From NCBI GenBank assembly GCA_017556685.1, contig JAFYMH010000018.1:1-40023 (forward strand): 40,023 nt of DNA, read 5' to 3'. The notes below the pieces were generated by a model. It was not told the DNA's origin, searched no databases, and worked only from the letters and a program-made list of their open reading frames with translations. Position numbers and translations under genes: made by a program. This stretch comes from Clostridia bacterium. Its GTDB lineage: Bacteria; Bacillota; Clostridia; Oscillospirales; CAG-272. Numbering within the stretch: position 1 is the stretch's first letter; the number at the start of each line of letters is the position of its first letter. Positions 2,692-28,415 of the stretch are shown piece by piece.

Positions 2692-3099
2692 TCAAAGCTC
2701 CCCTCCTTTGAACGTCCGAGCCCCCTCTTCTGCCAAAAGCTCCGAGATCCTGCGGCGGAAGACGTCAAGTTCTCCGTAAATATTGACCGGCTCCTCAAGA
2801 AAATACAAAACGCCGAACATTCCGTCGAGGCGGAACAGAGGGTGAAGGCGCTCGGCGTCGAGCGAAACGCCGTTTTGTAAAAAGATCTCAAGGATCTCTT
2901 CCTTCCATTTGAGGTACCTCTGCCGAATCTCAAGCAGGCGCTCACTCGGCGTATCAGAGCGGATGACCTCGTTATACAGACGGATCACCCCGTAGTGATC
3001 GGAGAACGAGGGGTCAAAGCCAAACAGCCCCTGTAGCCGCTCGCTCACCCTATCGTGCTCCTTGATCGCCTCCGAAAATTCTTCAAATGACAGACTCAT
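2692..3099 (-). CDS. Hypothetical, mostly helical protein (135 aa), second gene of the operon
   Basis: ATG at 3099 overlaps the upstream stop (ATGA). SD GGAGGG lies just upstream. No recognisable motif. Confidence 0.6.
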   Translation of the reverse strand: MSLSFEEFSEAIKEHDRVSERLQGLFGFDPSFSDHYGVIRLYNEVIRSDTPSERLLEIRQRYLKWKEEILEIFLQNGVSLDAERLHPLFRLDGMFGVLYFLEEPVNIYGELDVFRRRISELLAEEGARTFKGGEL

Positions 3100-16029: not shown

Positions 16030-16464
16030 TTATCTGCCAAAGCGCTCAAGGAGAAGATCGATCGCCTCAAGATAGCCGGAAAATCCATGCCCCGAGATCG
16101 TCGAAACGCAAGCCGAGCGCACGTAGGAGATCTGTCGGAACTCCTCCCTTGCCGAAACGTCCGAGATATGCACCTCGACCGTCGGGATCCCGATCGCCTT
16201 GACGGCGTCGGCGATGGCAATGCTCGTGTGGGTATAGGCGGCAGGGTTAAAAACGATGCCGTCGTACTCCCCGATCGCGCCGTGCAGGGCGTCGATCAAA
16301 GCCCCCTCGTGGTTGCTCTGAAAGACCGAATGGGATATGCCGAGCGCCTCGCAATGCCGCGCGATCCTCTCGCACAGATCTGCATAGCTCTCGGTTCCGT
16401 AGATCCCCGGCTCGCGCATACCGAGCAGGTTAAGGTTTGGTCCGTTTAATATCAGGATGCGCAT
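16030..16464 (-). CDS. aroQ: Type II 3-dehydroquinate dehydratase
   Basis: MRILILNGPNLNLLGMREPGIYG...HISDVSAREEFR. ATG at 16464 with GGAGG upstream. It overlaps the aroE/aroK stop by 35 nt. Confidence 0.9.
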   Translation of the reverse strand: MRILILNGPNLNLLGMREPGIYGTESYADLCERIARHCEALGISHSVFQSNHEGALIDALHGAIGEYDGIVFNPAAYTHTSIAIADAVKAIGIPTVEVHISDVSAREEFRQISYVRSACVSTISGHGFSGYLEAIDLLLERFGR

Positions 16465-17674
16465 AGAAATCCTCCAAAATCGCCTCGGCACAGTCAAGCG
16501 GCGTGCCGTTGTTTTCGATTGTCAAGTCGGAAAAGGAAAGATATTGCCCAAGCCGTGCGCGGTACATCCTTCGAAGATCGGCACCAACCGAAAGCGGTCG
16601 GTCCTCCCGCGAGAGCCGCTCCAGCTCCCGCAAAAGGAAATAGACCTTTCCGTTCTGCACGAGCGGATAGCGGTTTCCCCCGTCAAGCACGGCACCCCCG
16701 CCGGTTGCGATGATCACCCCGGGCTCCCGTCCCGCCAGAGCGACTGCCTCGCTCTCAAGCCGACGGAATGACACCTCGCCCTCTTCTCTGATGATCTCGG
16801 CAGGGGGTTTCCCCGCCATTTCCCAAACGATGGCGTCGGTATCCAAAAGGCGCCGACCCGTCCTCTCGGCAAGGAGCTCGGCTATCGTCGTTTTTCCCGA
16901 GCCCGGCATCCCGACGAGAACGATGCTCTGCCGATCGCGCAAAAGACCGCCGAAAATCCCCTCGATCGTCTCTTCCGAAACGGGGGTACCGGTAAAGATC
17001 GAGGCGGAAACCGCCGCCTGCGCCACCAGCATGGCAAGACCTCCCGAGGCGGGAATCCGCCTTCGCTCGGCAGAGTCGACAAGTCGGGTGCGAAGGGGGT
17101 TATAGATCACGTCAAGCACGCCCTTAAGACGGGGAAAGCGCGACAGATCGACCAGACTCTCGCCGTTACTTGGGTACATCCCGACGGGGGTTGCGTTGAC
17201 GATCACCTCGCTGTCGTAGTGCCGCGAAAGTGTCTCGTAGCTGCTTTCGCCTCTGCGCGACAAAACGACGATCTCGCGTGCGCCCGCATCGCGAGCGACC
17301 GTCTGCACGGTGAGCGAGGTTCCGCCGCTGCCGAGGATCAGAACCTTGCGCCCCGAAAAGGAGACCCCCGCACGGTGCGCCATCCAAAGGAAGCCCGCGT
17401 AATCGGTGTTATGCCCGATGAGCTTTCCCCCTCGGTTTTCCACCGTGTTGACGCTTCCGATCCGACGCGCCGTCTCGTCGAGCCCGTCAAGATACGGAAT
17501 GACCGCCGTTTTGTAGGGGATGGTGACGTTCAGCCCCTCAAAGGCGCGCGACGAAAGGAAGTCCCCAAGCTTTGACGGGGCAACCTCCTTAAGCTCGTAA
17601 CCGTAACGCCCGATCAGGCGGTGGATCTCGGGCGAGCAGCTATGCCGAAGGCTCTCTCCAATCAGATAATACAT
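16430..17674 (-). CDS. aroE/aroK: Fused shikimate dehydrogenase / shikimate kinase
   Basis: N-terminal AroE features are SCSPEIH, NVTIPYK and GSGGTS. The C-terminal kinase has Walker A GMPGSGKTT followed by LLDTD and ATGGG. Confidence 0.85.
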   Translation of the reverse strand: MYYLIGESLRHSCSPEIHRLIGRYGYELKEVAPSKLGDFLSSRAFEGLNVTIPYKTAVIPYLDGLDETARRIGSVNTVENRGGKLIGHNTDYAGFLWMAHRAGVSFSGRKVLILGSGGTSLTVQTVARDAGAREIVVLSRRGESSYETLSRHYDSEVIVNATPVGMYPSNGESLVDLSRFPRLKGVLDVIYNPLRTRLVDSAERRRIPASGGLAMLVAQAAVSASIFTGTPVSEETIEGIFGGLLRDRQSIVLVGMPGSGKTTIAELLAERTGRRLLDTDAIVWEMAGKPPAEIIREEGEVSFRRLESEAVALAGREPGVIIATGGGAVLDGGNRYPLVQNGKVYFLLRELERLSREDRPLSVGADLRRMYRARLGQYLSFSDLTIENNGTPLDCAEAILEDFYAHPDIKRTKP

Positions 17675-17683
17675 CGGCGCACC

Positions 17684-18820
17684 TCAAAGCTCGGCATAGC
17701 AGCCGAGATACTCAACGTCCCCGATCGACGCCTCAAGATCGTCAAGGACCGACGCCGCCGCCTCACGGCTCGGCGCCTCGAAATCGAGATAGAAGCGCAC
17801 CTCAAAATCGCTTCCGACGATGGGTCGGGATTCGATCTTCAGAAGATTGCATCCGCCGATCGCAAGCTTTGAGATGACGGCGTAAAGCGATCCCGGCGTA
17901 TGCACAAGCGTCAGGATCAGAGAGATCCTTGAAGCGCCCCCATAGATCGCGCCGTCCTTGGCGATACAGATAAAGCGCGTGAAGTTTCCGTCGCTGTTCT
18001 GAATCTGCGCCGAGATCCCGGAAAGCCCGTAAAGCGAGGCGCAGGCGGCAGAGGCGATGACCGCAACGTCGCGGCGCCCCTGCACGGCAAGCTCGCTTGC
18101 GGCAAGCGCGGTATTTTCTGCACAAACGACTCGGATCTCGGGATGTGCCTCGAGAAAGCGGCTGCACTGACCGAGCGCCTGGGGATGCGAGCGAACCTCG
18201 CGGATCTCCCCAAGCCCCACCCCGGGGAGCGCAAGAAGCGCATGGTCGATCTTCAGCTTCAGAGAGCGGACGATCGAGATCCGATGCGACTGCATGAGAT
18301 CGAGCACCGCGCCGACCGAGCCGTGCGTGCTGTTTTCGATCGGAAGCACGCCGTAGTCGCAAAGCCCGCTCTCGACCGCAGAGAAAACGCCCTCAAAGCT
18401 CTTGAAATAGACGATATGCTGCTCTCCGAACAGGCGGTCGCAGGCGATCTGCGAATACGCGCCCTCGCTCCCCTGGCAGGCGACCCGTCCGCCTCTCGGA
18501 AACTCTGAGGCGGCCCTTTCCTGCGACTCGAGGTACTTTCTTGAAAGAGCGCCCTTCGGCGCGACAAGGCGCGACTGATAGGCGCGGCTGATCTCCATCA
18601 TCGAGGCAAAGAAGCTCCGCGCGTAGGCGCTAAACTCGCTCGGCGCGCGCTCGGAGATCTCGGCTAAGATCTCTCGCTCGCGTCGGGGGTCAAGCACGGG
18701 AAGACCGTTTTCTTTTTTATAGGCGGCGATCTCCCCCGCCAGGCGCATCCTCTCGCAGAAGAGCTCGCTCATTTCCCGATTGATGCGATCAATGCCCTCT
18801 CGACATTCCTCAAGCCTCAT
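17684..18820 (-). CDS. pheA: Bifunctional chorismate mutase / prephenate dehydratase with a C-terminal ACT domain
   Basis: The N-terminal chorismate mutase helices are IDRINREMSELFCERMRLAGEIAAYKKENGLPVLDPRRE. The prephenate dehydratase region has VACQGSEGAYS and ENSTHGSV. The tail is ACT-like. Confidence 0.9.
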   Translation of the reverse strand: MRLEECREGIDRINREMSELFCERMRLAGEIAAYKKENGLPVLDPRREREILAEISERAPSEFSAYARSFFASMMEISRAYQSRLVAPKGALSRKYLESQERAASEFPRGGRVACQGSEGAYSQIACDRLFGEQHIVYFKSFEGVFSAVESGLCDYGVLPIENSTHGSVGAVLDLMQSHRISIVRSLKLKIDHALLALPGVGLGEIREVRSHPQALGQCSRFLEAHPEIRVVCAENTALAASELAVQGRRDVAVIASAACASLYGLSGISAQIQNSDGNFTRFICIAKDGAIYGGASRISLILTLVHTPGSLYAVISKLAIGGCNLLKIESRPIVGSDFEVRFYLDFEAPSREAAASVLDDLEASIGDVEYLGCYAEL

Positions 18821-19905
18821 TTGCCGTCCTCCTCGGTTTCCAAAATTGCCTCGAGCAAAACGATCGAGGCGATCGCCTCGACGCAGGGGACCGCGCGAAG
18901 GGCGATGCAGGGATCGTGCCTGCCGCCGACCTTGACCGTCGTTTCCTTTTTATCGGAAAGAGAGACCGTTCTCTGCTCGCGCGCGATAGACGCCGTCGGC
19001 TTCATGGCAACGCGGAACAGGATCGGCATTCCGTTTGAGATCCCACCGACGATGCCGCCCGCATGATTGGTCTCGGTTGCAATCTCGCCGTCTCGGATGC
19101 AATAGGGATCGTTGTGCTCCGAGCCGCGCATGGCACAGGCGGAAAAGCCCTCTCCAAACTCGATGCCGCGAACACCGCCGAGCACGAAGATCGCCCCTGC
19201 AAGCAGGTTTTCAAGCCCCCGTCCGAGCGGAGAGCCGATCCCTGCGGGAAGCCCGATCGCGCCGCATTCGATGATCCCGCCGACCGAATCTCCCGACTCG
19301 GCGGCAGAGCGGATCTCGCGCCGCATCTCCTCGCCCTTTCGGTCGTCAAGGGTCGGAAAGTCCTTTTTCCCGGGGGAAAGCAGCTCGTCCTTCGTCAGGA
19401 AAACGGGGGAAAATCTGCCTTCGGAGACACCCCCGACCGCCTCAAGATGCGCACCGACCGAGATCCCGCGAAGCGAAAGCGCCTGCCTTGCAAGCTCACC
19501 GATCGCAACGAGGGGCGCGGTCAGACGCGCCGAGAAATGTCCTCCGCCCCGAAGATCGATCCCGCTTCCGTAGCGCATCTGCGCCGTATAATCGGCGTGC
19601 GAGGGACGGGGGGTATCGCAAAAGCCGTAATCCCCCGATCGCATATTTTGATTTAAGATCCGCACCGTGATCGGCTCGCCCGTGGTGACGCCGTCCGAGA
19701 TGCCCGACAGAAAGAGCGGCTCGTCGCTCTCGCGGCGAGGGGTTGCAAGCGCGCCTCCGCCCCGACGGCGGTCCATTGTGCGCGAAAGCGCGTCAAAATC
19801 CACCGAAATCCCCCGAGGGAAGCCGACAAGGGTTGCCTCAACGTACTCACCGTGCGACTCGCCGACAAGCGAAACCGAAAGGCGCTCTCCAAATTCAGAT
19901 CTCAT
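18817..19905 (-). CDS. aroC: Chorismate synthase
   Basis: GESHG near the N-terminus, then RPSHADY and GGGHFSARLTA. Confidence 0.9.
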   Translation of the reverse strand: MRSEFGERLSVSLVGESHGEYVEATLVGFPRGISVDFDALSRTMDRRRGGGALATPRRESDEPLFLSGISDGVTTGEPITVRILNQNMRSGDYGFCDTPRPSHADYTAQMRYGSGIDLRGGGHFSARLTAPLVAIGELARQALSLRGISVGAHLEAVGGVSEGRFSPVFLTKDELLSPGKKDFPTLDDRKGEEMRREIRSAAESGDSVGGIIECGAIGLPAGIGSPLGRGLENLLAGAIFVLGGVRGIEFGEGFSACAMRGSEHNDPYCIRDGEIATETNHAGGIVGGISNGMPILFRVAMKPTASIAREQRTVSLSDKKETTVKVGGRHDPCIALRAVPCVEAIASIVLLEAILETEEDGK

Positions 19906-21157
19906 AGGACTCTCCCTTCAGGCTTGCAAAATCGTCAAAAAAGGCGGGATAGGATTTGGATACGGCATCGGCTCCGCAGATGATCACATCGCCCCCACAA
20001 AGCGAGCGCGCGACCGCCCCTGCCATGACGATCCGATGATCTCCCGCGCCGTCGATCACGCCGCCCGAAAGCCGTCTTCCGCCGAGAACCGTCATGCCAT
20101 CCTCGGTTGCAAAGGCGCTTGCGCCAAGGGCTCTGAGCATCGCCTCGGTCGAGGCGATGCGGTCGCTCTCCTTATAGCGGAGACGGGCGCCTCCAAAGAG
20201 ATGGCTTTCGCCCTCACACGCCGCCGCAAGCACGCAAAGGATCGGAAAAAGGTCGGGGCATCCCGATACGTCAAAATCAAAGGCGGACAGTCTCTCGGGG
20301 GCAGTGACCCTGACCGTTCGGTTTTCAAGGCGGGGCGCTACGCCTGCAAGCCGAAGCGCGTCGAGCACGGCACGGTCTGCCTGCAGGCTCTCTTCGGACA
20401 GCCCCGAAACCGAGACGTCTCCCCCGATCGCGCCCGAAACAAGGTGAAAGGCGGCGTTCGACCAATCCCCCTCGACGGTGTAGCATCCGGGCGAGCGGTA
20501 GGCCGAGCCGGGAACAAGGCGGTACTCCCTTTCTCCCACGTCAAAGGTAACGCCGAATGCCGAGAGCACCGAGCGCGTTACGTCAACGTACGCGGCACTC
20601 TCAAGAGGGGTCGTTAGGGCAAGCGACGCCTCTCCTTTAAGGAGGGGCATGGCAAGCAAAAGCCCCGTCACGAACTGCGAGCTGATATTCCCGGAAAGCT
20701 CAAAGCGCCCTGCGCGAAGCCCCGCCCCAACGCGAAGCGGAAGCTCCGAGCCGACGATCTTGGCGCCGTGCTCCTCGAGCTGAAGGGCGAGGGGCGCGAT
20801 CGGTCTTTTCCCGAGCCGTCCTCTGCCAAGGAAGGTTGCATCGACCCCCATTGCCGCCGCAACCGGAAGCAGAAAGCGCAAGGTCGAGCCGCTCTCCCCG
20901 ACGTCAAGCGTTGCCCTTTCGGGCTTTTGTGCATACCGTACGGTACAGCCCCCCGGGGTCATTTGAATCTCTGTGCCAAGCGCCGAAAGGGAGGATACGG
21001 TTGCCAGGATATCCTCCGAAAGGCCGCGAAAGAGGATCTCGGTCTGCCCCTCGCAAAGAGAGGCCGCAATCAGGGCTCGGTGCAGCTCGCTTTTCGAGGC
21101 GATGGCACCGACCTCTCCGCACTTGGCGGAGGAAACGATGCGGCGCGTAAGGGACAT
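19895..21157 (-). CDS. aroA: 3-phosphoshikimate 1-carboxyvinyltransferase (EPSP synthase)
   Basis: 420 aa with SKSELHRALIAASL, GESGSTLRFLLP, RYKESDRI and DHRIVMA. Confidence 0.92.
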   Translation of the reverse strand: MSLTRRIVSSAKCGEVGAIASKSELHRALIAASLCEGQTEILFRGLSEDILATVSSLSALGTEIQMTPGGCTVRYAQKPERATLDVGESGSTLRFLLPVAAAMGVDATFLGRGRLGKRPIAPLALQLEEHGAKIVGSELPLRVGAGLRAGRFELSGNISSQFVTGLLLAMPLLKGEASLALTTPLESAAYVDVTRSVLSAFGVTFDVGEREYRLVPGSAYRSPGCYTVEGDWSNAAFHLVSGAIGGDVSVSGLSEESLQADRAVLDALRLAGVAPRLENRTVRVTAPERLSAFDFDVSGCPDLFPILCVLAAACEGESHLFGGARLRYKESDRIASTEAMLRALGASAFATEDGMTVLGGRRLSGGVIDGAGDHRIVMAGAVARSLCGGDVIICGADAVSKSYPAFFDDFASLKGESYEI

Positions 21158-21191
21158 ACGGCTCTCCTTTCGTATCTCTTAAAAATCGGGG

Positions 21192-22229
21192 TCAGATCTG
21201 AAAATATTTTGACAGATCCGACATCGGAACGCGCTCGGCGCAACATTCGCCAAGGCGCTTTGGCAAAATGAGCGTGATCTCGTCGCCCGCGCGCTTTTTA
21301 TCGCTCCGCATGGCAGAGATAAGCTCCTCGGTGGTTGCAATAACGGCATTCGGAAGCCCTCTGTAGGTGATGCACCCGATGAGATCGTCAAGGAAGTTCT
21401 CCCGACAGTAGCCCATGCGAAGCGCACCGCGCGTGGCAACGATCATGCCAACGGCAACCGCCTGCCCGTGCGTAAACTCATGCTCGGTCAGCTTCTCGAT
21501 CGCATGCCCGACGGTATGCCCGAAGTTGAGCAGGGCTCTGACCCCCTCGTCGCGCTCGTCGGCCGAAACGACGTCGCCCTTGATGGTAAGTGCGCGGCGG
21601 ATGACCTCCTCAATATCGTGGTCGGCATAAAGCATCTCAAACAGCCCTCGGTCAAAGGCAACGCCGTACTTGATCGCCTCCGCCATGCCGTCGGCGTACT
21701 GCTCCTCGGTAAGGGTCGCAAACACGCTTGGGTCGCAGAGCGCGAGCGACGGTTGCCAGAAGGCGCCGATCTGATTCTTATAGCCCATGAGATTTACGCC
21801 GGTCTTTCCGCCGACAGACGAGTCGAGAGCGGCAAGCAGCGTTGTCGGGATCTGCACGAAGCGTATGCCCCGAAGATAGGTCGCGGCGGCAAAGCCCGCA
21901 ACGTCCCCCGTGATCCCGCCTCCGAGCGCAACGATAAGATCAGAGCGCGTGATCTCCCCCTCGAGCATGGCTCTCTGCAGGCAAGCGACCGTCTCGAGGG
22001 TCTTGTTTTCCTCTCCCCCCGGGAAGGTCAGACGAAGCACGCGGTGCCCCGCCGAGCGTAGCGAATGCTCCACGCGCTCGCCGTAAAGTCGGTCAACCGT
22101 TTCGTCCGAAATCAGAGCGATCCGAAGGACTCCGAGCCCCCGCCCGATCAGAGCACCGACCGAGTCGAGAAGCCCTCGCTCGATCAGAACGTCATAGGGT
22201 GCCTTGGTATGGATATGCACGTGCTTCAT
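21192..22229 (-). CDS. aroB: 3-dehydroquinate synthase
   Basis: GGGITGDVAGFAAATYLRGIRFVQIPTTLLA and NFGHTVGHAIE. Confidence 0.92.
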   Translation of the reverse strand: MKHVHIHTKAPYDVLIERGLLDSVGALIGRGLGVLRIALISDETVDRLYGERVEHSLRSAGHRVLRLTFPGGEENKTLETVACLQRAMLEGEITRSDLIVALGGGITGDVAGFAAATYLRGIRFVQIPTTLLAALDSSVGGKTGVNLMGYKNQIGAFWQPSLALCDPSVFATLTEEQYADGMAEAIKYGVAFDRGLFEMLYADHDIEEVIRRALTIKGDVVSADERDEGVRALLNFGHTVGHAIEKLTEHEFTHGQAVAVGMIVATRGALRMGYCRENFLDDLIGCITYRGLPNAVIATTEELISAMRSDKKRAGDEITLILPKRLGECCAERVPMSDLSKYFQI

Positions 22230-22272
22230 TTCGGTCCTCCGCCGCTCGTTTTTTCTACATTATATTATACGT

Positions 22273-22301
22273 ATTATACCCTGATTTTCGGGGGATGTCA
22301 A
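22273..22301 (-). promoter_or_regulatory. Internal consensus promoter in front of aroB
   Basis: On the minus strand: TTGACA (22301-22296, containing the tyrA TGA stop), 17-nt spacer, TATAAT (22278-22273). Confidence 0.6.
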
Positions 22302-23134
22302 CCGCCGTATTCCCTCTTTCGCTGTGCGCCCTTTGCAAGAAGGGCGCACAGACCCGACTCGTCCCCCATTGCGACGACCTGACGGATCTCGGAAAGGCTC
22401 CCGATCAGGCGGTCAAGCTCGGGGAGCAGATGCTCTCGGTTTGACACGAGGATCTCGCTCCACATCTCGGCGTTGATCTCGGCAACCCTCGTCATATCGC
22501 GGAAGGATCCCGCCGAAAAGCCCCTTTGCACCTCTGCCATCGGCGAGGAGATATAGGCGTTTGAGATGACGTGGGCAAGCTGAGAGGTATAGGAAATGAT
22601 GCGATCGTGCTCAGCAGGGGACGAGAAAACGACCCGAGAGAAGCCGAGCGACAGGAAAAATGCCTTCAGGCTCGACAAAACGTCGACCGAGGCGTCGCCG
22701 TCAGGGGTTAGGATCATCGAGGCACCGATGAAAAGATCGTCGCGCGACGCCTCGATTCCCGAGATCTCGCGCCCCGCCATCGGATGCCCTCCGACGAAGC
22801 GAAAGCCGTGCGCCCTTGAAAGCTCAGCCCCCACGCGGCAGATCTCGCTCTTGATGCCCGCAAGATCAACGACGACGGTATGCCGGGAGATCTCCCCCGC
22901 GTGCTCCTTTAGCCACGCGATCGCGGCGCGCGGATAGAGCGCAAGGAGAAGAAGATCGACCTCGCGGATCGAGTCTCTATCAACAAGCCCATCGTAAAGA
23001 CCGAGCAGATGCGCGCGGTCAAGCGTTTCTTCCGAACGCTCCGAAACGAGAATTCGGTCGCTCGGGCGGTCGGCTCGAATGGATTTTGCAAACGAGCCGC
23101 CGATCAGCCCAAGGCCAACGATTCCAACCGTCAT
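22298..23134 (-). CDS. tyrA: Prephenate dehydrogenase
   Basis: MTVGIVGLGLIGGSFA Rossmann motif and GGHPMAG. The ATG at 23134 overlaps the DAHP synthase stop (ATGA). The track ORF start at 23215 is an upstream extension. Confidence 0.88.
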   Translation of the reverse strand: MTVGIVGLGLIGGSFAKSIRADRPSDRILVSERSEETLDRAHLLGLYDGLVDRDSIREVDLLLLALYPRAAIAWLKEHAGEISRHTVVVDLAGIKSEICRVGAELSRAHGFRFVGGHPMAGREISGIEASRDDLFIGASMILTPDGDASVDVLSSLKAFFLSLGFSRVVFSSPAEHDRIISYTSQLAHVISNAYISSPMAEVQRGFSAGSFRDMTRVAEINAEMWSEILVSNREHLLPELDRLIGSLSEIRQVVAMGDESGLCALLAKGAQRKREYGG

Positions 23135-24132
23135 AGCAAAGCACTCCTCACCGCATTCACGCGCTTCATCAGATCCGAGAAGGCGTCGGGGGGCAGCGAC
23201 TGCGGTCCGTCGCAAAGAGCGGCCGAGGGATCGTTATGCACCTCGATCATCAGTCCGTTTGCCCCTGCCGCAACAGCGGCAAGCGCCATGGGAGCCACAA
23301 ATCGCGCGTATCCCGTCGCATGAGAGGGATCGACGATGATCGGCAGATGGGTCATCTGACGGAGCGCGGGGATCGCCGAGAGATCAAGGGTGTTGCGCGT
23401 TGCCGTCTCGAAGGTGCGGATGCCGCGCTCGCAGAGGATGACCTGTTCGTTTCCTCCCGCCATGATATACTCGGCGCTCATCACGAACTCCTGCAGGGTG
23501 CTTGAGAGGCCGCGCTTGAGCAGGATCGGCTTGCGAAGCGCCCCAACCTCCTTAAGCAGCTCGAAGTTCTGCATATTCCGCGCGCCGATCTGAATGACGT
23601 CGACCTCCTCGAAAAGCGGGATCTGCGACGGATCCATCAGCTCGGTCACGATCGGAAGCCCGGTTCTGCGCTTTGCCTCAAGGAGCATACGGATGCCCTC
23701 GGCGCGAAGGCCCTGGAAGGCATAGGGCGAGGTTCTCGGCTTGAAGGCGCCGCCGCGCAGAAGACCTGCGCCCGCTCCCTTAACCGCCTCTGCCACCGCC
23801 GAAAGCTGCGCCTCGGACTCGACCGAGCAGGGGCCTGCGATCACGGCGAAGGAGTCGCCGCCGATCTCGACGTCACCGATCCGAACGACCGTATCCTTCG
23901 GATGGAACTTTCGGTTCGCCTTCTTGTAGGGCTCCTGCACGCGCTTGACGTCCTCGACGATCTCAAGCGCTCTCAGAAGGTCGATGTCGATATGCGAGGT
24001 GTCGCCGATCAGCCCGAGGATCGTTCTGTGCGCTCCCTCGGTTGCCTGCACCGAAACGCCCTGCTTACCGAGCCACTCTACCAAAAGATCGATCTGCTCC
24101 CTTTTCTCCTGGTCCTTCAAAATAACGATCAT
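23131..24132 (-). CDS. aroF: 3-deoxy-7-phosphoheptulonate (DAHP) synthase, class I-beta, with an N-terminal ferredoxin-like regulatory domain
   Basis: The catalytic core has IAGPCSVES, LRGGAFKPRTSPY and DPSH. An N-terminal domain of about 70 aa (MIVILKD...) resembles Thermotoga-type DAH7PS. Confidence 0.9.
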   Translation of the reverse strand: MIVILKDQEKREQIDLLVEWLGKQGVSVQATEGAHRTILGLIGDTSHIDIDLLRALEIVEDVKRVQEPYKKANRKFHPKDTVVRIGDVEIGGDSFAVIAGPCSVESEAQLSAVAEAVKGAGAGLLRGGAFKPRTSPYAFQGLRAEGIRMLLEAKRRTGLPIVTELMDPSQIPLFEEVDVIQIGARNMQNFELLKEVGALRKPILLKRGLSSTLQEFVMSAEYIMAGGNEQVILCERGIRTFETATRNTLDLSAIPALRQMTHLPIIVDPSHATGYARFVAPMALAAVAAGANGLMIEVHNDPSAALCDGPQSLPPDAFSDLMKRVNAVRSALL

Positions 24133-24165
24133 ACCCTATCTCCTTTATGATTTTTAAGCCTCGCG

Positions 24166-24199
24166 AAAAAAGAAAAATCCCACAGCGTTTGCTGCGGGA
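24166..24199 (-). terminator. Intrinsic terminator in the aro operon leader (attenuator)
   Basis: On the minus strand: TCCCGCAGC-AAAC-GCTGTGGGA followed by TTTTTCTTTTTT. It lies between the leader ORF and the DAHP synthase RBS. Confidence 0.75.
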
Positions 24200-24232
24200 G
24201 TCGGCAAGTCTACCACTATATCTGCCGTCCTG

Positions 24233-24322
24233 TCAACACAACGCCGAAAAGGCTCTGCCCGTAAAATAATAGGCAAAGCCGAAGCTATAATAAAACTTCG
24301 CGTTGTTTGTCGGAGTCGTCAT
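24233..24322 (-). CDS. 29-codon Phe/Tyr-rich leader peptide of the aromatic amino-acid operon
   Basis: Hand translation gives MTTPTNNAKFYYSFGFAYYFTGRAFSALC*. SD GAGAGGA lies 9 nt upstream of the ATG. There are 5 Phe and 4 Tyr codons, 8 of them within 11 consecutive codons. It is too short for the supplied ORF track. Confidence 0.65.
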   Translation of the reverse strand: MTTPTNNAKFYYSFGFAYYFTGRAFSALC

Positions 24323-24362
24323 TTCGTTTTTTCCTCTCGGAGGCTCGGTTTGGTTTGAAGAA

Positions 24363-24391
24363 ACTATAGCACTCCCGACGCGCTTTGTAAA
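24363..24391 (-). promoter_or_regulatory. Candidate promoter of the aro operon
   Basis: On the minus strand: TTTACA (24391-24386), 17-nt spacer, TATAGT (24368-24363). Confidence 0.6.
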
Positions 24392-24449
24392 GTAGTTTTT
24401 TCGAAAGTTCACAAAAAGTTCATATATTTCGGAACAGCCGTTCCCCTGC

Positions 24450-24478
24450 TTTACAAAAACGCTTCGATATGTTATAAT
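24450..24478 (+). promoter_or_regulatory. Promoter for comM
   Basis: TTTACA (24450-24455), 17-nt spacer, TGtTATAAT (TATAAT at 24473-24478). Confidence 0.65.
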
Positions 24479-24534
24479 AAGGCAGAAAATCTAACTTCCG
24501 CGAGATGCGTCTCCGCGGAGATTCGGAGGACAGG

Positions 24535-26079
24535 ATGCTCTCGAAAATCTATTCCGCAGGGCTTGTTGGGATCGACGGCTTTGAGGTCACGGTCGAATGC
24601 AGCGGCTGGGACCGCATCCCCGCCTTTGAGCTCGTCGGGCTTCCCGACGCGGCGGTCAAGGAGGCAAAGGAGCGCGTGCGCGCCGCCTGCGAAAATACTG
24701 GGATCTTCTTCCCGTCGATGGAGCTTTGCGTCAATTTGGCGCCCGCAAGCCTGAAAAAGGAGGGCTCCTCCTTTGATCTCGCCATTCTTTGCAGCATCCT
24801 GCAATGCGACGGAAAGATCCCCCGCTCGCTGTCGCTTCTGGATAAATGCTTTATCGGCGAGCTCTCGCTCTCGGGCGAGCTTCGCGCCGTCGACGGCGTT
24901 CTTCCGATGAGCCTTGCCGCAAAGGCGGCGGGGAGATCGGAGATCTTCGTTCCGATCGAGAACGCCAAGGAGGCGGCGGTCGCCTCGGGCATTACGGTGT
25001 ACGGCGTCGGTCACGTGCGCGATCTTCTGCTCCATCTCCGAGGGGAAAAGCTCCTTGAGCCAACCGTCTTTGACGCCGATACCTTCCGCACGCGCGCGCA
25101 AAAGGCAGTCCCCGACTTCTCTGAGGTGCGCGGTCAGGCGAAGGCAAAGCGCGCGCTTGAGATCGCGGCGGCAGGAGGGCATAACGTCCTTCTGATCGGT
25201 CCTCCCGGCTCGGGCAAGTCAATGCTGGCAAAGCGCCTGCCCGGCATCCTTCCCGATCTTACCTTCGACGAGGCGATCGAGATCACGAAGGTACATTCGG
25301 TGCTCGGGCTCGTTCGGCAGGAGAATCTCATAACGAGCCGCCCCTTCCGCTCTCCGCATCATACCGTCAGTCCTGCCGGCATGGTTGGCGGCGGAAGCTA
25401 TCCGCAGCCTGGTGAGATCTCGCTCTCGCATCACGGCGTGCTCTTTCTCGACGAGCTTCCCGAGTTTCCGAAGCAGATCACAGAGGCGCTGCGCCAGCCG
25501 CTCGAGGACGGCTGTGTAACCGTCACGCGTGCGCGGCAAAAGGTGACCTATCCCTCGTCGTTTATGCTCGTTTGCGCCATGAACCCCTGCCGTTGCGGCT
25601 ACTTTGGCGACCCCAGCCACGAATGCACCTGCTCTCCCGATTCGGTCAGACGATATCTCTCGCGGGTCAGCGGCCCCCTGCTTGACCGCATCGATATTCA
25701 GGTTGAGGTCCCTGCCGTCAGCTACGACGAGCTCAGCGCTCCGCCCTCGGGGGAGGAGCGCTCGGACGCCGTCAAGGCGCGTGCGGATGCGGCGCGACAG
25801 TTCGCCGCACGGCGCGCCGAGGCGCTCGGTGACGCGGCAACCCCGAACGCGCGCCTGACCTCGGCACAGCTTCGCCGTCATTGCAGGCTCGACGGCGGCG
25901 CAGAGGCGGTTTTGCGCGCCGCCTACGAGGAGCTCGGTATGTCGGCACGCGGACACGACAGGGTCCTGCGCGTTGCAAGAACGATCGCAGATCTTGCCGA
26001 AAGCGAGCTGATCTCGGCGCGGCATATCGCCGAGGCGATCGGACTCCGCTCGCTTGATCGCAAATATTTTGCTCATTAA
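24535..26079 (+). CDS. comM: YifB/ComM-family Mg-chelatase-like AAA+ ATPase
   Basis: [21 protein letters not shown] at the N-terminus, Walker A GPPGSGKS and Walker B VLFLDE. ATG at 24535 after GGAGGA. The track start at 24505 is an upstream extension. Confidence 0.9.
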
Positions 26080-26169: not shown

Positions 26170-26985
26170 TTAAAGGAGCGAATGCTCAAGGAAGGCGTCG
26201 CCGAAACGGACGTCCACCGAGGTGCATCCGAGGGCAAGGAGGCGCTCGGCGCTTCTCTCAAAGGCGTATCCTATGTTCCCCGGCGTATGCGCGTCGGAGG
26301 TCAATATGAAGCGCGCACCAAGCTCGAGCGCCGCTGAGATCAGTCGGTCCGAGGGGTACGCCTCGCTCCGATAGCCGCGCGCGACGGCGCCGCTGTTGAT
26401 CTCAAGACGGGGCGCGACCCGAACGGCGGCGGCAAGAGCATCGCATGCCGCGCCGTAATAATACTCCGAGCGCGTGTTGATGGGCGAGCCCATCTCCTCA
26501 AATTTCGTGAGCAGATCGAAATGCCCGACGATCTCGGGACGAAGCCGATCGCAGACGTCAACGACCGAGGCAAAATACGCGTCGATCATCGCATGCTCGT
26601 TGCCCCCGTACCCGAGCGAGAGAGCGCGCAAAAGCTCCTCGGGGCTTCGGTCAACGTCAAAGCGGCCGCTCGGCGTATCAAAATAATGCACTGAGCCGAT
26701 CACGTAATCGACCTCGGAGGGGCGCCCCCCTCCGAGCGCGTCGATCTCAAGACCGATCTGCAGAGAGATCCTGTCGGCATAAAGAGCCTTCAGGCGCCGA
26801 AGCTCGGCGAAATACCCTGCCTCGTCGGTCATGCAAAAGCTCGTGTCAAAGGGGGTATAGGCGTGTCCCGAGATCCCGACCGTATGGTATCCGCGCGCGA
26901 TCGCCTCGAGCACGGTTGCCTCGGGAGTTCCCTTTCCGTCGCAAAAGACGGTATGCGTATGCAGATCCGATTTTGGAAGCCGCAT
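26170..26985 (-). CDS. hisK: Histidinol-phosphatase, PHP family
   Basis: [20 protein letters not shown] motif, GSVHY and SDAHTP. The ATG at 26985 shares 1 nt with the hisIE stop (TAATG). Confidence 0.85.
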   Translation of the reverse strand: MRLPKSDLHTHTVFCDGKGTPEATVLEAIARGYHTVGISGHAYTPFDTSFCMTDEAGYFAELRRLKALYADRISLQIGLEIDALGGGRPSEVDYVIGSVHYFDTPSGRFDVDRSPEELLRALSLGYGGNEHAMIDAYFASVVDVCDRLRPEIVGHFDLLTKFEEMGSPINTRSEYYYGAACDALAAAVRVAPRLEINSGAVARGYRSEAYPSDRLISAALELGARFILTSDAHTPGNIGYAFERSAERLLALGCTSVDVRFGDAFLEHSLL

Positions 26986-27638
26986 TACCTCATCTTCTCC
27001 TGCTTGACCTTGTGGTCGACGATTTGCCGCCGCGCCAGCTCCCGACGGATCTCGTCGGGGGAGATCCCCATCTCGACCATGAGCACGAGCGCGTGATAGC
27101 AGAGATCGGCAAGCTCGTAAACCGTTTCCTCGCGGCTCTCGCCCTTGGCGCCGATGATGACCTCGGTGCACTCCTCGCCGACCTTCTTCAGGATCTTGTC
27201 AAGACCCTTTTCAAAGAGATAGGTGGTGTAGGAGCCCGCGGGCATGCTCTCGCGGCGACCGCAGATCAGGCGGTACAGATCGTCGACCGTAAAGGGCTTG
27301 ACCGCATCTCCCTCGGGGGATGCGATCGGACGGTGGAAGCAGCTGACCTCTCCCGTGTGGCAGGCAGGGCCGTCCTTTTTGACCCGTACGACGAGCGCGT
27401 CGCCGTCGCAGTCTGCCGTTACGTCAACGACGTGCTGGTAGTTGCCCGAGGTCTCGCCCTTGAGCCAGAGCTCCCCTCTCGAGCGACTGTAAAAGCAGGT
27501 CAGGCGCCGCTCGAGCGTGATCTCAAGGCTTTCGCGGTTCATGTATGCAAGGGTGAGAACCTCGCCCGTGTAGGCATCCTGCACGATCGCGGGGATCAGT
27601 CCCTTTTCGTCAAATTTGAGTTCGCTTAGCTTCAACAT
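26985..27638 (-). CDS. hisI: Bifunctional phosphoribosyl-AMP cyclohydrolase / phosphoribosyl-ATP pyrophosphatase
   Basis: [25 protein letters not shown] and CDGDAL form the HisI part. The C-terminal HisE part has YTTYLFEKG and EESADLCYH-like [12 protein letters not shown]. Confidence 0.92.
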
Positions 27639-27656
27639 GGTAAATATCCTTTCCTA

Positions 27657-28415
27657 TTAGACTCTGACGTCAACGCCCTTTGCGCGAAGGCGCGCCTTGA
27701 GGTCGCGGATCTCGACCGTCCGATGATGGAAGATCGACGCCGCAAGCCCTGCGTCAACGCGGGGGAGCGTGTTAAAAAGCGTGATAAAATCCTCGATGCA
27801 TCCGGCTCCGCCCGATGCAACGACGGGGATCGAAACCGCCTCGGAGACGGCGCGGAGCATCTCGAGATCAAAGCCGCGCTTGACCCCGTCGGTATCGATG
27901 CTGTTGAGCACGATCTCGCCTGCGCCCGACGCCTCGCCGCGCTTTGCCCATTCGATCGCCTCAAGTCCCGTATCGTCCCTGCCTCCCCTTGCGAAAACGC
28001 GAAGCTCTCCGCCGACGCGCTTGACGTCCATTGAGAGAACGACGCACTGATCGCCATAGCGCTTTGCCGCCTCGCCGATCAGCTCGGGACGGCGGATCGC
28101 GCCCGAATTGACGCTCACCTTATCGGCTCCGCTTTTCAAAACGAGGTCAAAATCTGCAAGCGAGTTGATGCCGCCGCCGACCGTCAGGGGAATGAAGATC
28201 TCGCTCGCCACGCGGCGGAGAATGTCGGTAAAGATGCCTCTGCCCTCGGCGGATGCCGTAATATCGTAGAAGACGAGCTCATCGGCCCCCGAATCGTTGT
28301 AAAAGCGCGCAAGCGTAACCGGATCCTCGACGTCGCGAAGCCCCTCGAAGTTGGTTCCCTTCACCACGCGCCCTGCGCGCACGTCAAGGCAAGGAATGAT
28401 TCTCTTTGCAAGCAT
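27657..28415 (-). CDS. hisF: Imidazole glycerol phosphate synthase cyclase subunit
   Basis: MLAKRIIPCLDV...GADELVFYDI...PLTVGGGI...ASGGAG. Confidence 0.95.
   Translation of the reverse strand: MLAKRIIPCLDVRAGRVVKGTNFEGLRDVEDPVTLARFYNDSGADELVFYDITASAEGRGIFTDILRRVASEIFIPLTVGGGINSLADFDLVLKSGADKVSVNSGAIRRPELIGEAAKRYGDQCVVLSMDVKRVGGELRVFARGGRDDTGLEAIEWAKRGEASGAGEIVLNSIDTDGVKRGFDLEMLRAVSEAVSIPVVASGGAGCIEDFITLFNTLPRVDAGLAASIFHHRTVEIRDLKARLRAKGVDVRV

What the first reader, a model, noticed from the sequence alone, without database searches (positions are those of the whole stretch)
24133..24391. Phe/Tyr-rich 29-codon leader ORF plus intrinsic terminator upstream of the aromatic amino-acid operon
A minus-strand mini-ORF lies between the predicted promoter (24391-24363) and the DAHP synthase start (24132). 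It runs 24322-24233, has SD GAGAGGA, and encodes MTTPTNNAKFYYSFGFAYYFTGRAFSALC. That is 5 Phe and 4 Tyr codons, with 8 aromatic codons in an 11-codon run.

Codons 15-17 (GGCTTTGCC, 24280-24272) can pair with codons 22-24 (GGCAGAGCC, 24259-24251) as 9 bp including one G-U. The Tyr-Tyr-Phe codons sit in the loop. Downstream are a second hairpin (24227-24202) and a terminator, TCCCGCAGC/GCTGTGGGA plus a U-run (24199-24166).

This is the architecture of classical ribosome-mediated attenuators, such as pheL-pheA, trpL and hisL in Proteobacteria. Firmicutes are better known for T-box, TRAP or protein-mediated control of aromatic genes. It is consistent that the first controlled genes are the DAHP synthase and tyrA. 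I could not define a convincing antiterminator helix by eye.
Basis: partly seen in the sequence, partly recalled or inferred. Interest (0 to 1): 0.8.

Follow-up and report, generated by a model that had tools for sequence, protein, structure and literature searches.

The report
Phe/Tyr leader-peptide attenuator of aroF operon
A 29-codon mini-gene packed with phenylalanine and tyrosine codons, followed by a switchable terminator, sits in front of the aromatic amino-acid operon and most likely works as a classical ribosome-sensed attenuator; the feature is real and widespread in Clostridia, but this kind of element was already described computationally in 2019.

Summary

It is not chance. Only 0.13% of shuffles of the intergenic region reach this F/Y density. 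73% of 157 related aroF loci carry such an ORF, against 2.5% on the reverse strand.

RNA 24252-24228, which includes the leader stop codon, pairs with the whole terminator sequence (24199-24179). Hairpin B forms its apex. It is nearly isoenergetic with the terminator (-28.1 vs -28.8 kcal/mol) and forms first during transcription. A ribosome on the stop codon abolishes it, and an upstream segment (24314-24300) sequesters it in untranslated RNA.

The same logic holds in 98 non-redundant relatives (p about 1e-16). A covariance model built from relatives alone hits the window only here.

No T-box or riboswitch matches.

Stav et al. 2019 described the "uORF-13" aromatic amino-acid attenuator upstream of aroF/tyrA in Firmicutes. 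Premature termination at C. difficile aroF has also been observed. This is a new member of a known kind. No experiment has tested the mechanism.

The parts
24363..24391 (-). Sigma-70-type promoter: TTTACA, 17 nt, TG-TATAGT. The transcription start is expected near 24356.
   Evidence: 10 of 12 consensus matches with an extended -10 TG. The upstream gene is divergent (ComM/Mg-chelatase-like, 24505-26079 +).
24332..24338 (-). Shine-Dalgarno sequence GAGAGGA of the leader ORF, 9 nt before the AUG.
   Evidence: In the family, 93 of 98 leaders have an in-frame start preceded by an SD core, against 15% at random positions.
24233..24322 (-). Leader ORF of 29 codons plus UGA: MTTPTNNAKFYYSFGFAYYFTGRAFSALC.
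   Evidence: A public gene caller also called it on the same metagenome contig (L161 1811-1900).
24263..24295 (-). Regulatory codon run, codons 10-20: F Y Y S F G F A Y Y F (8 aromatic of 11). This is the proposed stalling zone.
   Evidence: p = 0.0013 against shuffles. Of the leader ORF's nine F/Y codons, 8 are U-ending, against 47% in the window's genes.
24300..24314 (-). Region 1, the anti-antiterminator strand UCC..ACAAACAACG. It pairs with region 2 in untranslated RNA. It is an imperfect direct repeat of the terminator 5' arm plus loop.
   Evidence: MFE. P(pair 24301-24243) = 0.98 in the untranslated leader. R1:R2 duplex of -15.7 kcal/mol.
24251..24280 (-). Hairpin A, the P1 stem of the family. 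GGCUUUGCC pairs with GGCAGAGCC, and Tyr-Tyr-Phe codons sit in the loop.
   Evidence: Alignment A1: 95.7% of cells paired, with an A-U to G-C swap at one pair (AU:6, GC:5). A CM built from relatives alone hits 24283-24229.
24228..24252 (-). Region 2, the antiterminator 5' strand CCU..CGGCGUU.UGUUG.C.GGA. It contains the leader stop codon UGA (24235-24233).
   Evidence: It pairs with 24199-24179. A ribosome footprint on the stop codon raises the cost of the antiterminator from 0.7 to 12.0 kcal/mol.
24202..24227 (-). Hairpin B, the apical stem-loop of the antiterminator. It also persists in the terminator form.
24166..24199 (-). Intrinsic terminator (regions 3 and 4): UCCCGCAGC-AAAC-GCUGUGGGA followed by UUUUUCUUUUUU.
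   Evidence: 9 bp, 6 G-C.: -15.9 kcal/mol. Terminator pairs covary in relatives.
16430..24132 (-). Controlled operon: aroF (24132-23131), tyrA (23134-22298), aroB (22229-21192), aroA (21157-19895), aroC (19905-18817), pheA CM-PDT (18820-17684), aroE-aroK fusion (17674-16430).
   Evidence: Pfam hits. The tyrA start comes from the public gene call.

Best explanation
This is a classical three-state, ribosome-mediated transcription attenuator that senses charged tRNA-Phe and tRNA-Tyr.

Transcription starts near 24356 and the leader ORF is translated.

(a) Phe and Tyr plentiful. The ribosome runs to UGA (24235-24233). Its footprint covers region 2 (24252-24228). The terminator (24199-24178 plus the U-tract) folds and transcription stops before aroF.

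(b) Phe or Tyr scarce. The ribosome stalls in the F/Y run (codons 10-20). It melts hairpin A and covers or separates region 1. Region 2 is left free. As the terminator 5' arm emerges, region 2 zips onto it from the base of hairpin B. It then also captures the loop and most of the 3' arm. The terminator cannot form in time, and RNA polymerase reads into aroF-tyrA-aroB-aroA-aroC-pheA-aroE/K.

(c) No translation. Region 1 (24314-24300) pairs with region 2, and the terminator forms.

Shown here: the sequence elements, their mutual exclusivity and energies, and their conservation and covariation in relatives. Inferred: that ribosomes really stall there, that transcription and translation are coupled, and that read-through responds to Phe/Tyr.
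For: Leader ORF, SD, promoter and terminator are present.

F/Y density: p = 0.0013 against shuffles of the region. In 157 related aroF loci, 72.6% have an ORF with at least 6 aromatic residues in 12 codons within 300 nt upstream. The figure is 2.5% on the reverse strand and 4.8% in shuffles. For at least 7 aromatic residues the figures are 61.8%, 0% and 0.8%. Trp codons are almost absent from these runs, 4 of 767.

Of 101 non-redundant leader-bearing loci, 98 passed the terminator criterion and 3 did not.

Window antiterminator: -28.1 kcal/mol against -28.8 for the terminator form. Co-transcriptional folding shows region 2 pairing with the terminator 5' arm as soon as it emerges. It reaches -24.7 kcal/mol before the 3' arm is complete. 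In the untranslated leader, P(terminator) = 0.999 and P(R1:R2) = 0.98.

Family test on 98 loci: the cost of replacing the terminator by upstream pairing is 5.9 kcal/mol. It is 12.8 with a shuffled upstream segment (Wilcoxon p = 4e-17) and 12.5 with a ribosome footprint on the leader stop codon (p = 1e-15). For the window the three values are 0.7, 7.9 +/- 3.9 and 12.0.

Gapless helix test: region 2:3 complementarity has p < 0.05 in 32 of 55 loci, with different sequences in different loci.

Cross-locus test: a locus's own region 2 pairs with its own terminator at -18.0 kcal/mol, against -12.0 for other loci's segments (p = 7e-17).

P1 and the terminator covary. A CM built without the window hits only 24283-24229 (26.4 bits, E = 5e-5).

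No Rfam family matches, including T-box, even at E <= 10.

Prior art with the same reading: Stav et al. 2019, uORF-13. Premature termination was observed in the aroF 5' UTR of C. difficile (Fuchs et al. 2021).
Against: There is no experimental evidence for this locus or for any member of this leader family.

Taken alone, the window's antiterminator is only marginally better than shuffles (p = 0.06; p = 0.15 for the best gapless helix). Its support comes mainly from the family.

Equilibrium folding with a masked ribosome always keeps the terminator, and P(antiterminator) is only 0.11 at equilibrium. The switch therefore has to be kinetic.

Transcription-translation coupling is weaker in some Firmicutes. 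B. subtilis RNA polymerase outruns ribosomes (my own knowledge, not tested here). That could limit a trp-type mechanism unless pausing synchronises the two.

About 27% of related aroF loci lack the leader.
Confidence: 0.85

Rival explanations
1. The leader peptide is an arrest peptide in the style of TnaC or SecM. It would sense free Phe or Tyr, or another ligand, in the ribosome exit tunnel, rather than charged-tRNA supply.
For: Some residues outside the aromatic run recur in relatives, such as FAAEY before the run and G-K/R-A after it.
Against: These recurring residues coincide with RNA pairing strands. G-K-A is the 3' arm of P1 and FAAE is region 1, and both covary at the RNA level. The order of F and Y, the peptide length and the C-termini vary freely between loci. 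That does not fit a tunnel-sensing arrest motif. Sensing free amino acid would also give induction by excess, the wrong sign for a biosynthetic operon.
Confidence: 0.04
2. The terminator is constitutive or leaky and the mini-ORF is incidental. Alternatively, the short transcript is a small RNA or encodes a small hydrophobic protein with its own function.
For: Equilibrium folds always favour the terminator. The short transcript would be about 180-190 nt with a strong terminator, like many sRNAs.
Against: The F/Y enrichment is tied to aroF operons in about 73% of 157 loci, and is absent on the reverse strand and in shuffles. The complementarity between the stop-proximal segment and the terminator is locus-specific, which a simple terminator would not need. 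The peptide is not conserved as a protein.
Confidence: 0.05
3. A trans-acting factor controls the terminator, and the ORF plays no role. Candidates are a T-box-like tRNA contact, a riboswitch ligand, or an RNA-binding protein of the TRAP or PyrR type.
For: Firmicutes commonly use T-boxes and TRAP for aromatic genes (general knowledge). The leader is highly structured (z = -5.0).
Against: No Rfam family matches at gathering score or at E <= 10. Twenty related loci without a leader also show no T-box upstream of aroF. What is conserved is codon content and alternative pairing, not an aptamer-like core.
Confidence: 0.04

Closest known systems
uORF-13 'aromatic amino acid attenuator' motif (Stav et al. 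2019, BMC Microbiol 19:66, PMC6429828, supplementary text; found from Clostridium novyi)
   Same: It lies upstream of aroF (DAHP synthase), with tyrA next in the operon. It is a short ORF ahead of a terminator stem, with a conserved F-Y-F in the loop of stem P1. It occurs in Firmicutes (Clostridiales among others) and in metagenomes, and was proposed to be a trp-like attenuator. The window has Y-Y-F in the loop of hairpin A/P1, the terminator, and the aroF-tyrA context.
   Different: Their alignment is not held in the paper's text supplements and nothing in Rfam matched, so a model-based membership test was not possible. As far as I could read, the paper's text describes only P1 and the terminator. 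The antiterminator with an apical hairpin, and its dependence on the stop-codon position, are worked out here. No experiment exists for either.
E. coli pheL-pheA, trpL and hisL attenuators (Proteobacteria)
   Same: The three-state logic is the same: regulatory codons, 1:2, 2:3 and 3:4 alternative pairings, a stop codon placed so that a terminating ribosome covers region 2, and an intrinsic terminator.
   Different: There is no sequence or covariance-model similarity. The sensed pair is Phe plus Tyr rather than one amino acid. It controls the common shikimate pathway plus both terminal branches, not pheA alone. The antiterminator carries an extra apical hairpin and also pairs with the terminator's 3' arm.
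aroR-aroF leader of Corynebacterium glutamicum (Actinobacteria), as cited by Stav et al. 2019
   Same: It is a leader peptide with an F-Y-F motif upstream of a DAHP synthase gene, and a transcription attenuator.
   Different: According to Stav et al., it belongs to a different phylum and differs in peptide and RNA structure. I did not compare the sequences here.
uORFC-13-1 (Acholeplasma aroF uORF; Brewer et al. 2021, PMC8632094) and uORF-12 (Firmicutes, mostly amino-acid transporters)
   Same: Both are Phe- or F/Y-coding uORFs ahead of a terminator in front of aromatic-pathway or transporter genes.
   Different: uORFC-13-1 is confined to Acholeplasma and relies on a run of U encoding Phe. uORF-12 has its F/Y peptide before P1, a more complex structure, and mainly transporter genes downstream.

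Membership tests
Ribosome-mediated (leader-peptide) transcription attenuators | Short translatable ORF (SD plus start codon) in the 5' leader of an amino-acid biosynthetic operon | tested here: met
   An SD-preceded start is present in 93 of 98 family members.
Ribosome-mediated (leader-peptide) transcription attenuators | Cluster of codons for the pathway's end-product amino acid(s) | tested here: met
   8 F/Y codons in 11. p = 0.0013 against shuffles. Conserved in 73% of 157 aroF loci, against 2.5-4.8% in controls.
Ribosome-mediated (leader-peptide) transcription attenuators | Intrinsic terminator between the leader ORF and the first structural gene | tested here: met
   Present in 98 of 101 non-redundant leader-bearing relatives. 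Terminator pairs covary.
Ribosome-mediated (leader-peptide) transcription attenuators | Antiterminator that excludes the terminator and is blocked when a ribosome sits on the leader stop codon | tested here: met
   Window: -28.1 against -28.8 kcal/mol. The cost rises from 0.7 to 12.0 with a ribosome at the stop. Family: 5.9 against 12.8 (shuffled) and 12.5 (stop masked), p about 1e-16. Cross-locus specificity. This is computational evidence only.
Ribosome-mediated (leader-peptide) transcription attenuators | Anti-antiterminator (1:2) pairing in untranslated RNA | tested here: met
   P = 0.98 for the R1:R2 pair in the untranslated leader. The 1:2 helix has p < 0.05 in 21 of 55 relatives.
Ribosome-mediated (leader-peptide) transcription attenuators | Read-through responds to charged-tRNA supply and needs leader translation | not testable with these tools
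   This needs reporter, Term-seq or in vitro coupled assays.
uORF-13 aromatic amino acid attenuator (Stav et al. 2019) | Located upstream of aroF, with tyrA next in the operon | tested here: met
uORF-13 aromatic amino acid attenuator (Stav et al. 2019) | Short ORF with an F-Y-F consensus inside the loop of stem P1, followed by a terminator stem | tested here: met
   The loop of hairpin A encodes Y-Y-F. P1 is conserved and covaries in 13 sequences.
uORF-13 aromatic amino acid attenuator (Stav et al. 2019) | Match to the published alignment or covariance model | not testable with these tools
   No alignment is among the paper's held supplements. No Rfam 15 family matched. As a surrogate, a CM built from 12 related aroF leaders hits the window once, E = 5e-5.
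Rfam leader families of other lineages (Phe_leader of gamma-Proteobacteria; leu/phe leader of Lactococcus; names recalled from memory) | Covariance-model match | tested here: not met
   cmscan of 24050-24500 against all 4227 Rfam families at E <= 10 gave only a spurious snoRNA hit.
T-box leader | Match to the T-box covariance model (specifier loop plus T-box antiterminator) | tested here: not met
   There is no T-box hit in the window at gathering score or at E <= 10. The same search does detect a T-box elsewhere (L058).

The most novel reading that the evidence does not exclude
The window's version may carry an extra regulatory layer absent from relatives. The leader's SD region (24349-24329) is strongly complementary to the terminator U-tract plus the 20 nt after it (24177-24155). 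In read-through transcripts this pairing could shut off further leader translation or reshape the aroF 5' UTR. Separately, near-identical leader logic in MAGs labelled Planctomycetota and Victivallales could mean that the attenuator travels with aroF between phyla.
Probability: 0.1. Interest if true: 0.4.

Novelty: new member of a known kind. Interest (0 to 1): 0.25.

Why it matters
The result confirms that gut and anaerobe Clostridia widely control entry into the shikimate pathway, together with the Tyr and Phe branches, by a leader-peptide attenuator reading Phe and Tyr codons together. T-boxes and TRAP are not used at these loci.

It also supplies an explicit, testable three-state structural model for a motif class (uORF-13-like) that was published only as "uORF plus P1 plus terminator" and has no experimental test. 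The model gives the antiterminator, its apical hairpin and the role of the stop-codon position.

For annotation, the 29-codon ORF should be labelled a leader peptide, not a hypothetical protein.

It does not open a new kind of mechanism.

Tried and rejected
1. Equilibrium MFE folding with a masked ribosome footprint, for the window and for truncated leaders of 55 loci. The terminator always won, or the free 5' arm always found some partner. The test did not discriminate and was replaced by constrained-energy and shuffle tests.
2. RNAduplex with 100 dinucleotide shuffles per locus timed out and allowed large loops. It was replaced by a gapless helix search.
3. The first constrained-fold run used the wrong ViennaRNA constraint symbol ('<' instead of '>'), so it forbade nothing. 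It was discarded and redone.
4. A metagenome scan for closer relatives of the window's aroF found nothing above about 71% identity. Window-lineage-specific covariation could therefore not be tested.
5. T-box, riboswitch and other Rfam families: no match. No T-box lies upstream of aroF in 20 leaderless relatives.
6. The SD/post-terminator complementarity was tested as a conserved feature. It is not conserved: 7 of 89 loci at p <= 0.05.
7. A literature search for the motif names returned noise.
8. The organism could not be identified.

Full report
OBSERVATION

- Promoter: TTTACA-17-TG-TATAGT at 24391-24363.
- SD: GAGAGGA at 24338-24332.
- Leader ORF: 29 codons, 24322-24233, encoding MTTPTNNAKFYYSFGFAYYFTGRAFSALC. 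It has 5 Phe and 4 Tyr, with 8 aromatic codons among codons 10-20.
- Hairpin A: 24280-24272 pairs with 24259-24251.
- Hairpin B: 24227-24202.
- Terminator: UCCCGCAGC-AAAC-GCUGUGGGA (24199-24178) followed by UUUUUCUUUUUU.

The genes downstream are aroF (DAHP synthase with the ferredoxin-like domain), tyrA, aroB, aroA, aroC, pheA (chorismate mutase-prephenate dehydratase) and an aroE-aroK fusion. The upstream gene is divergent (ComM/Mg-chelatase-like). The terminator therefore cannot belong to an upstream gene.

The F/Y density is not a composition effect. Only 0.13% of 3000 dinucleotide shuffles of the intergenic region reach it. It is the only such ORF in the 40-kb, 59% G+C window. Eight of the nine F/Y codons end in U, against 47% in the window's genes.

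COMPARATIVE EVIDENCE FOR THE LEADER ORF

I fetched 80 genomic and 80 metagenomic loci encoding aroF relatives at 61-72% identity. They are mostly Oscillospiraceae, Lachnospiraceae, Christensenellales and other Clostridia MAGs, plus isolates.

Within 300 nt upstream of aroF, 72.6% of 157 loci have a short ORF with at least 6 aromatic residues in 12 codons. The figure is 2.5% on the reverse complement and 4.8% in dinucleotide shuffles. For at least 7 aromatic residues the figures are 61.8%, 0% and 0.8%.

The peptides vary in length and in the order of F and Y, and hardly ever contain Trp (4 of 767 run codons). A start codon with an SD is present in 93 of 98. Of 101 non-redundant leader-bearing loci, 98 have a strong intrinsic terminator between the leader stop and aroF. 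The median energy is -20 kcal/mol and the median distance from stop to terminator is 38 nt.

THE ANTITERMINATOR

Plain MFE folding with a masked ribosome keeps the terminator in every state.

Enumerating structures of the RNA left free by a ribosome stalled at the end of the F/Y run (24252-24178) gives a second fold at -28.1 kcal/mol, against -28.8 for the terminator fold. In this fold:
- CCU (24252-24250) pairs with GGG (24181-24179).
- CGGCGUU (24246-24240) pairs with AACGCUG (24189-24183).
- UGUUG (24238-24234) pairs with CAGCA (24194-24190).
- C24232 pairs with G24195.
- GGA (24230-24228) pairs with UCC (24199-24197).
- Hairpin B sits at the apex.

The 5' strand contains the leader stop codon. 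The 3' strand is the whole terminator.

Folding successively longer transcripts shows this helix forming as soon as the terminator's 5' arm emerges. It reaches -24.7 kcal/mol when only four nucleotides of the 3' arm are out. The switch is therefore kinetic, as in trpL.

A ribosome footprint on the stop codon raises the cost of the antiterminator from 0.7 to 12.0 kcal/mol.

In the untranslated full leader, region 1 (24314-24300) pairs with region 2 (P = 0.98) and the terminator forms (P = 0.999). Region 1 is an imperfect direct repeat of the terminator's 5' flank: CGACUCC occurs at 24318-24312 and at 24203-24197. That is expected if both pair with region 2.

IS THE ANTITERMINATOR MORE THAN CHANCE?

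For the window alone the support is marginal: p = 0.06 against shuffles, and p = 0.15 for the best gapless helix. The family settles it.

- In 98 non-redundant loci, the energetic cost of replacing the terminator by upstream pairing of its 5' arm averages 5.9 kcal/mol. It is 12.8 when the upstream segment is shuffled (Wilcoxon p = 4e-17). It is 12.5 when a ribosome footprint is placed on the leader stop codon (p = 1e-15). In 61 of 98 loci p <= 0.05.
- The best gapless helix between the post-run segment and the terminator arm plus loop has p < 0.05 in 32 of 55 loci. Different loci use unrelated sequences that stay complementary, for example GUGGAUUUCGCU/GGUGAAAUUCAC, AUUUAGUGUUGCCG/CGGUGAUGCUAAAU and GGUAUCGCUGUG/CGCAGCGAUACC.
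- Each locus's own stop-proximal segment pairs with its own terminator better than the segments of other loci do: -18.0 against -12.0 kcal/mol, p = 7e-17. The window ranks in the best 8%.

HAIRPIN A IS A CONSERVED STEM (P1)

In a subfamily of 13 sequences including the window, RGCUUURCC pairs with GGYARRGCY, enclosing three or four F/Y codons. In alignment A1, 95.7% of P1 cells are paired. One pair alternates A-U (6 sequences) and G-C (5). The terminator shows compensatory changes at 6 of 9 pairs. Slid controls give 34-51% pairing.

A covariance model built from the 12 relatives only (P1 plus region 2) finds exactly one hit in the window, at 24283-24229 on the minus strand (26.4 bits, E = 5e-5).

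ALTERNATIVES

No Rfam family, including T-box and the proteobacterial leader families, matches the region at gathering score or at E <= 10.

The recurrent non-aromatic residues (FAAE, G-K/R-A) coincide with RNA pairing strands. The peptides are otherwise free to vary. Both points argue against an arrest peptide or a functional small protein.

The distance from the stop codon to the terminator (33 nt here, median 38 nt) is too long for a terminating ribosome to block the terminator directly. The antiterminator is therefore needed.

WHAT IS KNOWN

Leader-peptide attenuators in Firmicutes have been predicted for his genes (PMC2965389, PMC9413887).

Decisive for novelty is Stav et al. 2019 (PMC6429828), who described two "aromatic amino acid attenuators" found from Clostridium novyi.
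- uORF-13 has 336 examples in Bacillales, Clostridiales, Thermoanaerobacterales, Negativicutes and metagenomes. About half lie upstream of aroF, with tyrA the next most common gene. It has a short ORF ahead of a terminator stem and F-Y-F in the loop of P1.
- uORF-12 has 1258 examples, mostly upstream of transporters.

They note the analogous but distinct aroR element of Corynebacterium. Brewer et al. 2021 describe a further aroF uORF in Acholeplasma. Fuchs et al. 2021 detected premature termination in the aroF 5' UTR of C. difficile.

The window's element matches the verbal definition of uORF-13 in context, P1 loop content and terminator. I could not run their model, because no alignment is held.

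I found no experimental dissection of this family. As far as I could read, the published text does not describe an antiterminator.

VERDICT

It is a new member of an already described kind, so interest is modest (0.25).

What this analysis adds:
- the explicit three-state model with coordinates;
- the roles of hairpin B (antiterminator apex) and of the stop-codon position;
- family-wide statistical support.

UNCERTAINTIES

- The organism is unidentified. It comes from a metagenome, and its closest aroF relatives are Clostridia at 70-72% identity.
- No close relatives were available for lineage-specific covariation.
- All energies are nearest-neighbour predictions.

Noticed in passing
window 22273-22301 (-): A perfect sigma-70 consensus (TTGACA, 17 nt, TATAAT; 12 of 12) lies in the 68-nt gap between the tyrA stop and the aroB start. 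It could be an internal promoter that expresses aroB-aroA-aroC-pheA-aroE/K independently of the Phe/Tyr attenuator, for example to supply Trp, folate or quinone synthesis.
   Followed up: no
window 24329-24349 (-) with 24155-24177 (-): The leader's SD region (CGAGCCUCCGAGAGGAAAAAA) is complementary to the terminator U-tract plus the sequence after it (UUUUUCUUUUUUCGCGAGGCUUA). The duplex is -21.6 kcal/mol, against -10.2 +/- 3.1 for shuffles. The same test in relatives is not significant (7 of 89 at p <= 0.05), so this is window-specific or fortuitous.
   Followed up: partly
L062 and L063 (MAGs labelled Thermoguttaceae), L064 (Victivallales), upstream of position 3001: F/Y-rich leader ORFs and terminators also precede aroF in MAGs assigned to Planctomycetota and Lentisphaerota. 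The L062 peptide (..YNAKSYGFNYAFLFTG..) resembles the window's (..NNAKFYYSFGFAYYFTG..) more than most Clostridia leaders do. L062 and L063 lack tyrA and aroB next to aroF. This could be horizontal transfer of aroF with its leader, or mis-binned contigs.
   Followed up: partly
window 16430-17674 (-): The last gene of the operon is a single ORF with shikimate dehydrogenase (N- and C-terminal domains) fused to shikimate kinase. No dehydroquinase gene (aroD/aroQ) is visible in the operon.
   Followed up: no
window 24312-24318 and 24197-24203 (-): The 7-mer CGACUCC occurs both at the start of region 1 and at the start of the terminator's 5' arm, followed by similar A/C-rich sequence (GACAAACAACGCG and CGCAGCAAACGCUG). 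This repeat is the footprint of two strands competing for the same partner, region 2.
   Followed up: yes
L058 5259-5503 (+): A T-box leader (93.6 bits) lies about 1.3 kb downstream of the aroF gene of a Ruminococcaceae MAG that has no F/Y leader upstream of aroF. The gene it controls was not examined.
   Followed up: no
window 26170-28415 (-): Histidine-biosynthesis-type genes lie just beyond the divergent ComM gene: a PHP-domain protein that may be a histidinol phosphatase, and a His_biosynth family protein (hisA/hisF-like). No His-rich leader ORF was seen in the window scan.
   Followed up: no
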